From a virus (lineage: Duplodnaviria > Heunggongvirae > Uroviricota > Caudoviricetes), in the IMG/VR virus record IMGVR_UViG_2537561980_000006: 36,019 bases of DNA. The stretch is one strand, 5' to 3'. A model generated the notes under the pieces. It did no database searches. It had not been told where the DNA came from and worked only from the letters and a program-made list of their open reading frames with translations. Position numbers and translations under genes: made by a program. Shown piece by piece: positions 1-36,019 of the stretch (position 1 is its first letter; each line of letters opens with the position of its first letter).

Positions 1-901
1 AGCAAAAACGACTTATGGTATTGCGAGCTTCAGTCGCACTACACGGTCGTTCTGTTACTCTTTATGAGAAAGCGTTCCCGCTTTCAGAGCAATGTTCAAA
101 GAAAGCTCATGACCAATTTCTAGCCGACCTTGCGAGCATTCTACCGAGTAACACCACACCGCTCATTGTCAGTGATGCTGGCTTTAAAGTGCCATGGTAT
201 AAATCCGTTGAGAAGCTGGGTTGGTACTGGTTAAGTCGAGTAAGAGGAAAAGTACAATATGCAGACCTAGGAGCGGAAAACTGGAAACCTATCAGCAACT
301 TACATGATATGTCATCTAGTCACTCAAAGCTTTAGGCTATAAGAGGCTGACTAAAAGCAATCCAATCTCATGCCAAATTCTATTGTATAAATCTCGCTCT
401 AAAGGCCGAAAAAATCAGCGCTCGACACGGACTCATTGTCACCACCCGTCACCTAAAATCTACTCAGCGTCGGCAAAGGAGCCATGGGTTCTAGCAACTA
501 ACTTACCTGTTGAAATTCGAACACCCAAACAACTTGTTAATATCTATTCGAAGCGAATGCAGATTGAAGAAACCTTCCGAGACTTGAAAAGTCCTGCCTA
601 CGGACTAGGCCTACGCCATAGCCGAACGAGCAGCTCAGAGCGTTTTGATATCATGCTGCTAATCGCCCTGATGCTTCAACTAACATGTTGGCTTGCGGGC
701 GTTCATGCTCAGAAACAAGGTTGGGACAAGCACTTCCAGGCTAACACAGTCAGAAATCGAAACGTACTCTCAACAGTTCGCTTAGGCATGGAAGTTTTGC
801 GGCATTCTGGCTACACAATAACAAGGGAAGACTTACTCGTGGCTGCAACCCTACTAGCTCAAAATTTATTCACACATGGTTACGCTTTGGGGAAATTATG
901 A
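1..901 (+). pseudogene. tnp: IS10 transposase, C-terminal ~300 codons, reading frame broken near 329-335
   Basis: Frame from nt 3 (..EQKRLMVLRAS..) hits TAG at 333-335; transposase sequence resumes in a different frame from 383 to stop 899-901. Segment lengths fit a 402-codon ORF missing one nucleotide. Confidence 0.75.
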
Positions 902-914
902 GGGGATCTCTCAG
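1..914 (+). mobile_element. IS10 (IS4 family) copy, left part cut by window edge; inside end at 914
   Basis: Transposase C-terminal coding sequence with DDE-type motifs (LIVSDAGF; YSKRMQIEETFRDLK = Y-2-R-3-E-6-K), then 13 nt ending GGGGATCTCTCAG, which matches the IS10 inside end as I remember it. Confidence 0.85.
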
Positions 915-1169
915 GATAAAGCTAGCATGCCAACGGTATACAGCGAGTCGCTCTTTGTGGAGGTGACGATTACCTAACAATCGGTCGATTCGTTTGATGT
1001 TATGTTTTGTTCTCGCTTTGGTTGGCAGGTTACGGCCAAGTTCGGTAAGAGTGAGAGTTTTACAGTCAAGTAATGCGTGGCAAGCCAACGTTAAGCTGTT
1101 GAGTCGTTTTAAGTGTAATTCGGGGCAGAATTGGTAAAGAGAGTCGTGTAAAATATCGAGTTCGCACAT
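915..1169 (-). pseudogene. tnp: IS10 transposase N-terminal fragment (85 codons), truncated at the IS junction
   Basis: ATG at 1169 (minus) encodes MCELDILHDSLYQFCPELHLKRLNSLTLACHALLDCK..WHASFI, then diverges where the other IS copy's end begins. Confidence 0.8.
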
Positions 1170-1230
1170 CTTGTTGTCTGATTATTGATTTTTCGCGAAA
1201 CCATTTGATCATATGACAAGATGTGTATCC
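1162..1230 (+). ncRNA. Predicted RNA-OUT antisense RNA of IS10 (position inferred from IS10 coordinates)
   Basis: Established IS10 biology: pOUT transcript starts ~nt 115 and runs toward the outside end, overlapping the transposase 5' end; mapped onto window coordinates, not independently detected. Confidence 0.4.
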
Positions 1231-1814
1231 ACCTTAACTTAATGATTTTTACCAAAATCATTAGGGGATTCATCAGTGCGGTGCCTGGTGCCTCCAGGTG
1301 ACGTTAACCAGTTAACAATTAACGCCGGATACAGAGAATCCACCCATAACACTGTTTTTGGTTTTAACTGTTCCGCGTGCGCTTAGCCGCATTCACCGCA
1401 TCACAAAATTCACTTTAAAAAGGGCGGCAGAGCAGTCACGGAGTAAAACTGATACCGCCAAACGTCACCAGAAAATTGATAACAGAGGGCGTTGCAGCGG
1501 GGTTGTCACTTAAGCGTATGGTCAACCTGACAACCAGGTGTCCTCAACGGGGAAGGAATAACCCCGCCATACTTACCGCCGCGCCATTTCGCGGAGTGCC
1601 ACAACCGGAAGCGCACGGCCGACGAAAATTTAACGACAGGCTATCTATGAACCAGCTACCTCGCCGTGCGCTTTCGCGTTATGGTCTGACTTTTCATGGA
1701 AATATCCTTTCAGTAAACTGTCAGTGCCGGATGCTCACCCGTGTCCGGCGCACGCACTCCACCTCACCCGTGGAGAACTCCTTAATTACCAACCTTAGCT
1801 TCGTTGGTTAGCTA

Positions 1815-8825: not shown

Positions 8826-9085
8826 CTAATCGTTATGTCAATTAATTACAATAACGACTTATCATGGTGAGCAAAAACGGTTTGCGGGAAAAGGAGAGTT
8901 AAGTAGAATTGCTGCGGGTGCTTGAGGCTATCTGCCTCGGGCATGAACACCAAAAGGCAGATAGAGAAAAGCCCCAGTTAACATTACGCGTCCTGCAAGA
9001 CGCTTAACATTAATCTGAGGCCCAATCTATGTCTCACAAATGTAGGTTAGCCTCTTACGTGCCGAAAGGCAAGGAGAAGCAGGCT

Positions 9086-9241
9086 ATGAAGCAGCAAAAG
9101 GCGATGTTAATCGCCCTGATCGTCATCTGTTTAACCGTCATAGTGACGGTACTGGTAACGAGGAAAGACCTCTGCGAGGTACGAATCCGAACCGGCCAGA
9201 CGGAGGTCGCTGTCTTCACAGCTTACGAACCTGAGGAGTAA
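9086..9241 (+). CDS. Hok/Gef-family type I toxin (51 aa)
   Basis: MKQQKAMLIALIVICLTVIVTVLVTRKDLCEVRIRTGQTEVAVFTAYEPEE: single TM helix and the conserved Hok C-terminal region; in-frame upstream extension from 9029. Confidence 0.8.
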   Translation: MKQQKAMLIALIVICLTVIVTVLVTRKDLCEVRIRTGQTEVAVFTAYEPEE

Positions 9242-12655: not shown

Positions 12656-12731
12656 GGCCCTTTAGCTCAGTGGTGAGAGCGAGCGACTCATAATCGCCAG
12701 GTCGCTGGTTCAAATCCAGCAAGGGCCACCA
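12656..12731 (+). tRNA. tRNA with CAU anticodon (Ile2-lysidine type or Met)
   Basis: Cloverleaf folded by hand: acceptor GGCCCTT/AAGGGCC, loop CUCAUAA, T-loop TTCAAAT, 3' CCA; close to E. coli ileX-type sequence as I recall it. Confidence 0.8.
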
Positions 12732-12732
12732 G

Positions 12733-12809
12733 CCGCCACTAGCTCATCAGGAAAGAGCGTCAACCCTTTAAGTTGAGTGTGCGAGGTTCGAGTCCCCGGT
12801 GGCGGTCCA
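12733..12809 (+). tRNA. tRNA with UUU anticodon (Lys-like) and unusual C at position 33
   Basis: Acceptor CCGCCAC/GTGGCGG, anticodon stem TCAAC/GTTGA, loop CCTTTAA, T-loop TTCGAGT, 3' CCA. Confidence 0.6.
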
Positions 12810-12811
12810 GT

Positions 12812-12887
<76 letters not shown>

Positions 12888-12890
12888 TAT

Positions 12891-12965
<75 letters not shown>

Positions 12966-34671: not shown

Positions 34672-36019
34672 ATGGCAGTAAAAATTTCAGGTGTACTGAA
34701 AGACGGTGCAGGTAAACCGGTACAGAACTGCACAATCCAGCTGAAAGCAAAACGTAACAGCACCACGGTGGTGGTGAACACGGTGGCATCTGAAAATCCG
34801 GATGAAGCCGGGCGTTACAGCATGGACGTTGAGTACGGTCAGTACAGCGTTATTCTGTTGGTGGAAGGCTTCCCGCCATCGCATGCCGGGATCATCACCG
34901 TGTATGAAGACTCACAACCGGGTACGCTGAATGATTTTCTCGGTGCCATGACGGAGGATGATGCCCGTCCGGAGGCTCTGCGCCGTTTTGAACTGATGGT
35001 GGAAGAGGTGGCGCGTAACGCGTCCGTGGTGGCACAGAACACGGCAGCCGCGAAGAAGTCAGCCAGTGATGCCAGCACATCAGCCCGTGAGGCGGCAACC
35101 CATGCGACTGATGCTGCAGGCTCAGCACGCGCAGCCAGCACGTCAGCCGGACAGGCCGCGTCGTCGGCTCAGTCAGCGTCTTCCAGCGCAGGAACGGCAT
35201 CAACAAAGGCCAGTGAAGCATCGAAAAGTGCTGCTGCTGCAGAGTCCTCAAAAAGCGCGGCAGCTACCAGTGCCAGTGCCGCGAAAACGTCAGAAACGAA
35301 TGCGGCAGCGTCACAAAAATCTGCAGCCACTTCTGCATCCGCAGCGACCACAAAGGCGTCAGAAGCTGCCACCTCAGCCCGGGATGCGTCGGCCTCAAAA
35401 GAGGCAGCGAAATCATCAGAAACGAACGCATCATCAAGTGCCAGTAGTGCAGCTTCCTCGGCAACGGCGGCAGGAAATTCCGCGAAGGCCGCAAAAACGT
35501 CTGAGACGAATGCAGATAACAGCGCACAGGCGGCAGCAGACTCACAAACTGCATCAGCAAACTCCGCGACAGCAGCCAAAAAATCAGAAACCAACGCGAA
35601 AAATAGCGAGGCAGCAGCAAAGAGCAGCGAAACCAACGCTAAAGCCAGCGAAACTAATGCTAAATCCAGTGAAACAAACGCGGCGAAATCGGCAGCGGAC
35701 GCACTTAATTATCGCAACCAGGCGCAAGGGATTGTAGGCACCAGCATCGGCCTCGGGGCATCACCGCGTGATTGTCCTGATATTTCCGGCAACCCATCAG
35801 GGTATATCGGATTTATGCGCATTATGAGTAATGCAAAAGGCTTTCCATCGATTGCATCCGGTGAAAGCAGTCTTACGGGGTTTATTAGTCAGGTAGATGG
35901 AACACCAGCGTATACAGGTGTATTTCAGGGATGGGCTACGCGCTCGCTTTATACTTATCGCTGGAATCCGACAATAGGCCCGCAGTGGACGCGTCACGCA
36001 AGAAAAGATGAAGTGGACA
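34672..36019 (+). CDS. stf: Side tail fiber protein Stf, N-terminal part (runs off window end)
   Basis: MAVKISGVLKDG.GKPVQNCTIQLKA.RNSTTVVVNTV.. then Ala/Ser/Thr-rich repeats (KTSETNA..); no stop before window end. Confidence 0.8.
   Translation, partial: MAVKISGVLKDGAGKPVQNCTIQLKAKRNSTTVVVNTVASENPDEAGRYSMDVEYGQYSVILLVEGFPPSHAGIITVYEDSQPGTLNDFLGAMTEDDARPEALRRFELMVEEVARNASVVAQNTAAAKKSASDASTSAREAATHATDAAGSARAASTSAGQAASSAQSASSSAGTASTKASEASKSAAAAESSKSAAATSASAAKTSETNAAASQKSAATSASAATTKASEAATSARDASASKEAAKSSETNASSSASSAASSATAAGNSAKAAKTSETNADNSAQAAADSQTASANSATAAKKSETNAKNSEAAAKSSETNAKASETNAKSSETNAAKSAADALNYRNQAQGIVGTSIGLGASPRDCPDISGNPSGYIGFMRIMSNAKGFPSIASGESSLTGFISQVDGTPAYTGVFQGWATRSLYTYRWNPTIGPQWTRHARKDEVD

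What the first reader, a model, noticed from the sequence alone, without database searches (positions are those of the whole stretch)
1..1276. Tn10-type remnant: IS10 copy joined at its inside end to an inverted 362-bp IS10 outside-end fragment
The plus-strand IS10 ends at 914 with its inside end, and from 915 an inverted IS10 runs from an internal point (transposase codon ~85) back to its outside end at 1276. This is the structure expected if a composite Tn10-like element lost everything between the inside end of one IS10 and the interior of the other, as happens in IS10 inside-end-promoted deletions. Neither piece encodes an intact transposase. The outside-end region that would carry pIN/pOUT and RNA-OUT is retained. 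The flank after the end (1277-1285 TGCGGTGCC) has GC at positions 2-3 and 7-8 of the 9-bp Tn10 target consensus NGCTNAGCN.
Basis: partly seen in the sequence, partly recalled or inferred. Interest (0 to 1): 0.55.

Follow-up and report, generated by a model that had tools for sequence, protein, structure and literature searches.

The report
Rearranged IS10 cluster at contig end
The window begins with two pieces of the well-known insertion sequence IS10, joined head-to-inside by the element's own transposase and sitting between dicF and dicB in a prophage of E. coli EPECa12. It is an ordinary transposon rearrangement, and its full layout is hidden because the draft contig stops inside the repeat.

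Summary
Window 1-914 is IS10 positions 415-1329 and ends at the inside end. Window 915-1276 is IS10 positions 362-1, inverted, at 100% identity, and ends at the outside end with an intact RNA-OUT gene.

The window is a whole draft contig (AKNH01000025.1, E. coli EPECa12, a natural isolate). The left edge is therefore an assembly break inside IS10, not a biological truncation.

The same junction occurs in two independent complete records, and both are three-piece structures with a 9-bp duplication of IS10 354-362:
- A nested IS10-in-IS10 insertion on a Klebsiella plasmid.
- A Tn10 deletion-inversion in NEB Turbo, R(zgb-210::Tn10)TetS.

A canonical Tn10 would leave IS10-Left polymorphisms in one of the two pieces, and both are pure IS10-Right type at all 15 diagnostic sites.

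The cluster is inserted about 30 bp upstream of dicB and 145 bp downstream of DicF in a lambdoid prophage. The empty site is seen in ETEC4085 and 14EC029.

My estimates are: nested insertion about 0.42, deletion-inversion about 0.36, simple deletion about 0.13. This is known biology and of low interest. A minor point is that IS10 seems to have recurrent self-target sites.

The parts
1..914 (+). IS10 positions 415-1329 (IS10-Right / 'ISVsa5' type): the C-terminal two-thirds of the transposase gene, running to the inside end. The left edge is the contig end.
   Evidence: 0 mismatches and 1 gap against the IS10 reference; the contig is 36,019 bp, the same as the window. IS10-Right type at sites 425, 903, 1249, 1268, 1271, 1272, 1281 and 1300.
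329..335 (+). 1-bp deletion (the A at IS10 position 744, CAAAG[A]CTTT, between window 329 and 330). It causes a frameshift at transposase codon 213 and a TAG stop at 333-335.
   Evidence: The resulting 106-aa ORF is found on no other contig in the gene index.
892..914 (+). IS10 inside-end terminal repeat (...GAGGGGATCTCTCAG).
915..923 (-). GATAAAGCT, the reverse complement of IS10 354-362 (AGCTTTATC). This is the 9-bp target that is duplicated in the complete comparators.
   Evidence: L001 and L002 carry the complementary junction at IS10 position 354.
915..1276 (-). Inverted IS10 fragment, positions 362-1, ending at the outside end.
   Evidence: 362/362 identical. IS10-Right type at sites 24, 25, 27, 47, 83, 107 and 203.
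915..1169 (-). Transposase codons 1-85 (start codon at IS10 position 108 = window 1169). It reads on through the junction as a 99-aa chimeric ORF, 870-1169.
   Evidence: The exact 99-aa product is EIQ65412.1 of E. coli EPECa12 and occurs on one contig only.
1162..1231 (+). RNA-OUT antisense RNA gene, full length, transcribed towards the outside end.
   Evidence: RF00240, 98.8 bits, E = 1.3e-20.
1254..1276 (-). IS10 outside-end terminal repeat (reverse complement of CTGATGAATCCCCTAATGATTTT).
1277..1285 (.). Target 9-mer TGCGGTGCC in the dicF-dicB spacer of the prophage. It is presumably duplicated at the unseen left border.
   Evidence: empty site at L004 6001-6009; 4/6 match to NGCTNAGCN.
1422..1473 (-). 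DicF small RNA gene of the prophage. It is context, lying 145 bp from the insertion point.
   Evidence: RF00039, 76.7 bits.

Best explanation
IS10 transposase joined the inside end of one IS10 to target site 354-362 (AGCTTTATC) of a second IS10 lying in the opposite orientation. The window shows only the right-hand part of the resulting IS10 cluster.

The layout I judge most likely is a nested insertion:
1. A solo IS10 first landed in the dicF-dicB spacer of this lambdoid prophage, with its outside end towards dicF (target TGCGGTGCC).
2. A second, complete IS10 then transposed into it.

This gives [IS10 1329-354, minus][complete IS10, plus][IS10 362-1, minus], with the 9 bp 354-362 duplicated. 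The draft assembler could not get past the repeat, so the contig stops at position 415 of the inner copy.

Shown:
- The exact end-to-target joint.
- The insertion site.
- The intact RNA-OUT gene and outside end.
- The existence of exactly this nested layout at the same 9-bp site in another replicon.

Inferred:
- That the left half exists in EPECa12.

Functional consequences, inferred from established IS10 and dicB-operon biology:
- dicB and the genes beyond it are cut off from the operon promoter upstream of ydfA.
- The fragment still makes RNA-OUT, which can repress IS10 transposase translation in trans.
- The cluster keeps usable transposon ends and so could move again.
For: - The joint uses the very last base of the inside end.
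- Identical joints occur in two independent complete records, each with a complementary joint 9 bp away. A 9-bp staggered cut is the signature of IS10.
- Klebsiella plasmid NZ_CP132692 has exactly the nested layout at 354-362, with a 9-bp outer duplication GGCTGTGTA.
- E. coli E94/E92 have the same kind of nesting at 834-842.
- Both visible pieces are IS10-Right type, as expected when wild IS10 copies hit each other.
- No tet DNA and no IS10-Left polymorphism is visible.
- The strain is a natural isolate.
- Every other IS10 seen in this prophage region in complete genomes is a solo IS10. These are KMi006 (5 bp away, plus another in the exonuclease gene), 2014EL-1345-2 and E9.
Against: - The left half is not in the data.
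- The record whose visible part is identical to the window apart from the window's 1-bp deletion (NEB Turbo) is a deletion-inversion, not a nest.
- In my small survey, deletion-inversions (4 lineages) outnumber nests (2 lineages) overall, and are 2:2 among natural isolates.
- In neither surveyed nest were both visible parts pure IS10-Right type.
- Sequence inside the repeat may be a consensus over several IS10 copies, which weakens the polymorphism arguments away from the junctions.
Confidence: 0.42

Rival explanations
1. Tn10-type deletion-inversion. A composite of two inverted IS10 copies (Tn10 or similar) had inserted here. Transposase cut both inside ends, discarding the DNA between them, and the ends attacked site 354-362 inside one of the IS10 copies on opposite strands. 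The result is [complete IS10, plus][IS10 354-1329, plus][IS10 362-1, minus]. On this reading the window's plus piece is the flipped part of the split copy. Only 61 more bases of it would lie left of the contig end, followed by the inside end of another complete IS10.
For: - NEB Turbo, whose genotype lists R(zgb-210::Tn10)TetS, has exactly this layout in speA at the same 9-bp site. It has the outer duplication TACACGGTG, and its visible part matches the window apart from the 1-bp deletion.
- The same layout at other sites occurs in E. coli 98219, Klebsiella plasmid CP092407 and a DH5alpha assembly. Each pairs one IS10-Left-type copy with one IS10-Right-type copy, so each derives from Tn10.
- Both window pieces being the same (Right) type is what this model predicts when IS10-Right is the split copy. 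That was the case in 3 of the 4 examples.
- The mechanism is textbook (PMC2723962).
Against: - It requires a whole Tn10-like composite to have landed in this prophage.
- No tet DNA or IS10-Left sequence is visible.
- Solo IS10 insertions are far more common, and are the only kind seen nearby in other genomes.
- No complete E. coli genome has any IS10 or Tn10 end at this site.
Confidence: 0.36
2. Two-piece structure: [complete IS10, plus][IS10 362-1, minus] and nothing more. It could arise in two ways. One is the deletion outcome of a Tn10-type inside-end attack on 354-362. The other is transposition, as a unit, of the 1.69-kb segment bounded by two outside ends that exists inside a nested structure.
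For: - The same inside-end event can give a deletion instead of an inversion (PMC2723962).
- A two-piece structure exists in the E. coli LY180 lineage at IS10 site 628-636.
- The segment [inner IS10 + 362-bp fragment] is bounded by two outside ends, the preferred substrate of IS10 transposase (inference).
Against: - For a canonical Tn10, one piece must be IS10-Left type. Both pieces are IS10-Right type at 15 of 15 diagnostic sites, including the sites within 80 bp of the junction and within the 362 bp next to unique flank, where the consensus should be copy-specific.
- Neither complete record with this junction is two-piece.
- The only two-piece example found (LY180) lacks a target duplication and comes from an engineered strain.
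Confidence: 0.13
3. Assembly chimera: the 914/915 join is an artefact of assembling repeated IS10 reads at a contig end.
For: - The window is a 2012 draft contig whose two ends both lie in repeats.
- The single-base deletion at IS10 position 744 is unique to this contig, which hints at imperfect consensus.
Against: - The join is base-for-base identical to junctions in two independent finished records, where it is half of a 9-bp-staggered transposition product.
- There is no sequence repeat at the breakpoint that would mislead an assembler: the native context is CCGAACA|GATAAAGC and the window has CTCTCAG|GATAAAGC.
Confidence: 0.04

Closest known systems
IS10-Right (IS4 family; RefSeq label 'ISVsa5 family')
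   Same: Sequence identity is 100% over 362 bp, and 914/915 aligned columns are identical over the other piece. It has the same inside and outside ends, the same RNA-OUT, and a transposase with a DDE_Tnp_1 hit.
   Different: No complete copy is visible. One piece is cut by the contig end and carries a 1-bp frameshift. The other is only the first 362 bp.
NEB Turbo R(zgb-210::Tn10)TetS remnant in speA (NZ_CP053605, 2,667 bp)
   Same: It has an identical inside-end|362 junction and an identical visible sequence. It is a Tn10 inside-end deletion-inversion with 354-362 duplicated.
   Different: It is in a laboratory strain at a different locus (speA), and its full layout is known. The left copy there is an IS10-Left/Right hybrid. 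Whether EPECa12 has that third piece is unknown.
Nested IS10-in-IS10 on K. pneumoniae IncFIB/IncHI1B plasmid NZ_CP132692 / NZ_CP132703
   Same: It has the same target 354-362, the same orientation and the same right-hand junction.
   Different: The inner copy there is IS10-Left type (16 differences), whereas the window's plus piece is IS10-Right type. The replicon and host also differ.
Tn10-promoted inside-end deletions (Kleckner; reviewed in PMC2723962)
   Same: An inside end is joined to a new target, and whatever lay beyond it is lost.
   Different: The expected IS10-Left/Right pairing is not seen. No tet remnant is present. The strain is a natural isolate with no TetS selection.

Membership tests
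IS10 (IS4 family insertion sequence) | Near-identity to the 1329-bp IS10 sequence | tested here: met
   362/362 identical for one piece; 0 mismatches and 1 gap over 915 aligned columns for the other.
IS10 (IS4 family insertion sequence) | Characteristic outside and inside terminal repeats at the element boundaries | tested here: met
   the inside end stops at 914 and the outside end stops at 1276.
IS10 (IS4 family insertion sequence) | Intact DDE transposase gene (402 codons) | tested here: not met
   the plus piece lacks codons 1-102 because of the contig edge and is frameshifted at codon 213. The minus piece has codons 1-85 only.
IS10 (IS4 family insertion sequence) | RNA-OUT antisense gene near the outside end | tested here: met
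   RF00240, 98.8 bits, full length.
IS10 (IS4 family insertion sequence) | 9-bp direct target duplication flanking the insertion | not testable with these tools
   The left flank is not in the contig. The right 9-mer TGCGGTGCC is single-copy in the empty sites.
Tn10 composite transposon or its remnant | Two IS10 copies in inverted orientation with inside ends facing each other | tested here: inconclusive
   Inverted IS10 pieces are present, but the same picture arises from nesting of solo IS10 copies.
Tn10 composite transposon or its remnant | tet(B) region DNA or fragments of it between the IS10 copies | tested here: not met
   the two IS10 pieces abut directly, with no intervening DNA.
Tn10 composite transposon or its remnant | One arm carrying the 16 IS10-Left polymorphisms | tested here: not met
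   all 15 diagnostic sites that are visible are IS10-Right type. An unseen third piece could still be Left type.
Nested IS insertion (IS10 in IS10) | Complete inner element flanked on both sides by the interrupted outer element, with a 9-bp direct repeat of the outer sequence | tested here: inconclusive
   The right side is met (inside end|362). The left side lies beyond the contig end. The full pattern is seen in L002 and L009.
Tn10 inside-end deletion-inversion | Two inside ends joined to the two sides of one 9-bp target, with the segment between them inverted | tested here: inconclusive
   One such joint is present. The second would lie 61 bp beyond the contig end. The full pattern is seen in L001, L008, L010 and L011.

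The most novel reading that the evidence does not exclude
IS10 has a small set of preferred self-target sites, and these repeatedly generate the same compound, outside-end-bounded elements in unrelated bacteria.
- Site 354-362 was hit in NEB Turbo, in a Klebsiella plasmid and in EPECa12.
- Site 628-636 was hit in the LY180 lineage and in strain 98219.
- Site 834-842 was hit in E94/E92 and in a second Klebsiella plasmid.

The most-used site, 354-362, matches only 3 of the 6 consensus positions. Something other than the NGCTNAGCN consensus (local DNA structure or flanking context) would therefore be directing self-insertion.
Probability: 0.5. Interest if true: 0.25.

Novelty: already known. Interest (0 to 1): 0.12.

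Why it matters
It matters little beyond bookkeeping.

- **Assembly caution:** An IS fragment at a draft-contig edge should not be read as a biological truncation. One junction cannot tell apart three known IS10/Tn10 rearrangement products.
- **Local effect on the prophage:** The insertion separates dicB, which encodes a cell-division inhibitor, from its operon promoter. It also places an outward-reading IS10 end next to DicF.
- **Effect on other IS10 copies:** The retained RNA-OUT can still damp IS10 transposition in trans.
- **Possible follow-up:** The recurrent self-target sites may be worth a short note for people who study IS10 target choice or annotate Tn10 remnants in laboratory strains.

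Tried and rejected
- **Pattern scans for the two junctions.** Exact-pattern scans in the species-representative genomes, viral contigs and metagenome contigs all returned nothing.
- **Source contig.** The source was found through the exact 99-aa junction-spanning ORF. This gave no sequence beyond the window, because the window is the whole contig.
- **The 114-aa downstream ORF.** The look-up was uninformative. Ordinary truncated IS10 remnants next to tet genes encode the same product.
- **An ancestral state at this site.** A search for any complete E. coli genome with an IS10 end here found none.
- **Other IS10 copies near dicB.** The copies in 2014EL-1345-2 and E9 lie in neighbouring genes, not at this site.
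- **Promoter scan.** The simple promoter/terminator scan did not pick out pIN or pOUT. Their presence rests on 100% identity to IS10 and on the RNA-OUT model.
- **Literature.** Searches for the accession, for IS10-in-IS10 and for Tn10 TetS remnants found no description of this structure. The two papers that name EPECa12 were not read.
- **dicB look-up considered and dropped.** I considered retrieving the dicB-side contig of EPECa12 through a DicB homology search followed by an exact look-up. The look-up cannot be aimed at one assembly, and a contig ending next to dicB would rank low.
- **Contig end at position 415.** I considered whether it discriminates between the models. It does not, because all the models place a repeat boundary at 354-362.
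- **pOUT-driven dicB expression.** I considered whether this would exclude layouts with an outside end facing dicB. It does not, because KMi006 has exactly that arrangement.

Full report
**What is there**

I took a complete 1329-bp IS10 from E. coli KMi006 as the reference. Window 1-914 aligns to IS10 415-1329 with no mismatch and one single-base gap. Window 915-1276 aligns to IS10 362-1 on the other strand at 362/362.

The join reads ...ATTATGAGGGGATCTCTCAG|GATAAAGCTAGCATGCC. The terminal base of the inside end therefore abuts IS10 position 362, the last base of transposase codon 85. The outside end stops at 1276. Rfam finds a full-length RNA-OUT at 1162-1231 (98.8 bits) and DicF at 1473-1422 on the minus strand.

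**Where it comes from**

The minus-strand ORF 870-1169 reads from the truncated transposase across the junction. Its exact 99-aa product exists on only one contig of the gene index, AKNH01000025.1 of assembly GCA_000268125.1, length 36,019 bp. NCBI calls the protein EIQ65412.1, from Escherichia coli EPECa12.

The window is therefore a whole draft contig of a natural isolate. Its left edge, at IS10 position 415, is an assembly break in a repeat. Its right edge lies in a repetitive tail-fibre gene. Nothing can be said from this contig about what lies left of position 415.

**Insertion site**

From base 1277 onwards the window is 100% identical to a lambdoid prophage next to tRNA-Ser/mtfA in ETEC4085, 14EC029 and relatives. 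Those genomes have no IS10 there.
- Window 1277-1285 (TGCGGTGCC) equals L004 6001-6009, about 30 bp upstream of the dicB start codon.
- It lies 145 bp beyond the 3' end of DicF.
- The 9-mer matches 4 of 6 consensus positions of NGCTNAGCN.
- No complete E. coli genome out of 5,426 has an IS10 end at this exact site.
- KMi006 has an independent solo IS10 only 5 bp away, with target duplication TGCCTGGTG.

**The same junction elsewhere**

A 141-bp probe across the junction finds it as a single aligned piece in three records. These are the E. coli NEB Turbo chromosome and one 308,779-bp Klebsiella pneumoniae plasmid sequenced from two isolates.

| Record | Layout in IS10 coordinates | Outer 9-bp duplication | Interpretation |
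|---|---|---|---|
| NEB Turbo | [1-1329 +][354-1329 +][362-1 -], inside speA | TACACGGTG | Tn10 deletion-inversion |
| Klebsiella plasmid NZ_CP132692 | [1329-354 -][1-1329 +][362-1 -] | GGCTGTGTA | Nested IS10-in-IS10 insertion |

In both records IS10 positions 354-362 (AGCTTTATC) occur twice. A 9-bp staggered cut of this kind is what IS10 transposase makes. The NEB Turbo genotype lists R(zgb-210::Tn10)TetS. Its layout is what the textbook mechanism predicts when both Tn10 inside ends are cut and attack opposite strands of a target (PMC2723962), with the target lying inside IS10-Right itself.

**A wider look**

Other records have an inside end followed by inverted IS10 at other offsets.

| Layout | Records | IS10 target site | Outer target duplication |
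|---|---|---|---|
| Nested | E94/E92 | 834-842 | present |
| Deletion-inversion | 98219 | 628-636 | present |
| Deletion-inversion | Klebsiella plasmid CP092407 | about 834-842 | present |
| Deletion-inversion | a DH5alpha assembly | 876-884 | present |
| Two-piece | LY180 lineage | 628-636 | absent |

All three layouts therefore exist. The two-piece layout is the rarest in this sample. The survey could only detect targets between roughly positions 362 and 900.

**Polymorphism test**

Copies of the second sequence type differ from the reference at 16 fixed positions: 24, 25, 27, 47, 83, 107, 203, 410, 425, 903, 1249, 1268, 1271, 1272, 1281 and 1300. A fragment adjoining the jemA/gltS side of a Tn10 carries the last six of these, so this type is IS10-Left.
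- Every deletion-inversion in the survey pairs a Left-type (or hybrid) copy with a Right-type copy, as expected for Tn10.
- In the window, the plus piece is Right type at all 8 sites in 415-1329.
- The minus piece is Right type at all 7 sites in 1-362.

The sites nearest the junction and the unique flank are the ones least likely to be blurred by repeat collapse in the assembly. The test does not exclude a composite of two Right-type copies. It also does not exclude movement, as a unit, of the 1.69-kb outside-end-bounded segment that exists inside a nest.

**Weighing the layouts**

Nest and deletion-inversion both fit everything visible.
- For a nest: the strain is wild; solo IS10 insertions are the only kind seen in this prophage region in other genomes; no Tn10 hallmark is visible.
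- For a deletion-inversion: it is the commoner product in the survey, and the record whose visible part matches the window apart from the 1-bp deletion is one.

My estimates are nest 0.42, deletion-inversion 0.36, two-piece 0.13, assembly chimera 0.04, and anything else the remainder. A chimera is unlikely for two reasons. The join is identical to half of a proven transposition product in two finished records. There is also no repeat at the breakpoint that would mislead an assembler.

**The single-base deletion**

The A at IS10 position 744 is missing (window 329/330). It is not in a homopolymer. It breaks the frame at codon 213. The ORF it creates is unique to this contig. It may be a real inactivating mutation of that copy or a consensus error. 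The data here cannot tell.

**Likely consequences**

These are inferred from established IS10 and dicB-operon biology and were not tested here.
- The cluster interrupts the ydfABC-dicF-dicB transcription unit between dicF and dicB. dicB should therefore lose its normal promoter.
- RNA-OUT is intact and should still pair with transposase mRNA from other IS10 copies.
- pOUT reads out across the outside end into the strand antisense to DicF.
- Whatever the full layout, the cluster keeps at least two usable IS10 ends and could move again.

**Novelty**

IS10, Tn10 inside-end rearrangements and nested insertion sequences are all well known, so this is an instance of them.

The one point I could not find described is that the same internal IS10 sites are hit repeatedly in unrelated lineages. 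IS10 has no 6/6 consensus site within itself, six 5/6 sites and 54 perfect half-sites. Yet the site used three times, 354-362, scores only 3/6.

Noticed in passing
IS10 positions 354-362, 628-636 and 834-842 (window 915-923 for the first); loci L001, L002, L007-L010: The same internal IS10 9-mers are used as targets in unrelated lineages. Site 354-362 is used three times including the window, and sites 628-636 and 834-842 twice each. Site 354-362 matches only 3/6 of the NGCTNAGCN consensus, while better-matching sites exist in IS10.
   Followed up: partly
window 1277-1291; L003 3587-4915: E. coli KMi006 carries an independent solo IS10 just 5 bp from the window's insertion point (target duplication TGCCTGGTG). 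Its outside end, and hence pOUT, faces dicB. Further solo IS10 copies sit in the neighbouring exonuclease and ydfD-like genes of similar prophages (L003, L013, L014).
   Followed up: partly
window 329-335: A single-base deletion (the A at IS10 position 744, not in a homopolymer) frameshifts the transposase reading frame. The resulting ORF is found on no other contig in the index. It is either a real mutation or a consensus error.
   Followed up: partly
window 1422-1473 (-): The DicF small RNA gene lies 145 bp from the IS10 outside end. pOUT/RNA-OUT transcription leaving IS10 would run antisense to it.
   Followed up: no
window 8916-9091 (+): An Rfam sok antitoxin RNA match (120 bits) lies in the prophage, next to the region where hokD is annotated in the related ETEC4085 prophage.
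   Followed up: no
window 12656-12965 (+): A cluster of four prophage tRNA genes (anticodons CAT, TTT, TGT, TCC). The CAT gene is annotated tRNA-Ile in the related RefSeq records but is called tRNA-Met by ARAGORN.
   Followed up: no
window 35300-36019: The contig ends inside a tail-fibre gene with an Ala/Ser/Thr-rich repetitive stretch. The right edge is therefore also a repeat-induced assembly break.
   Followed up: no
L007 2239-4206 (E. coli LY180, ydeN): This is the only two-piece IS10 + inverted-fragment structure found. It has no 9-bp target duplication (TGCTTTACC versus TACTACGCT), and its fragment is an IS10-Left/Right hybrid. This suggests an additional adjacent deletion or recombination.
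   Followed up: no
L001 2611-3939 (NEB Turbo): The complete IS10 in the NEB Turbo Tn10 remnant is a hybrid. It is IS10-Left type at positions 24-903 and IS10-Right type at 1249-1300, which is consistent with gene conversion between the two arms.
   Followed up: no
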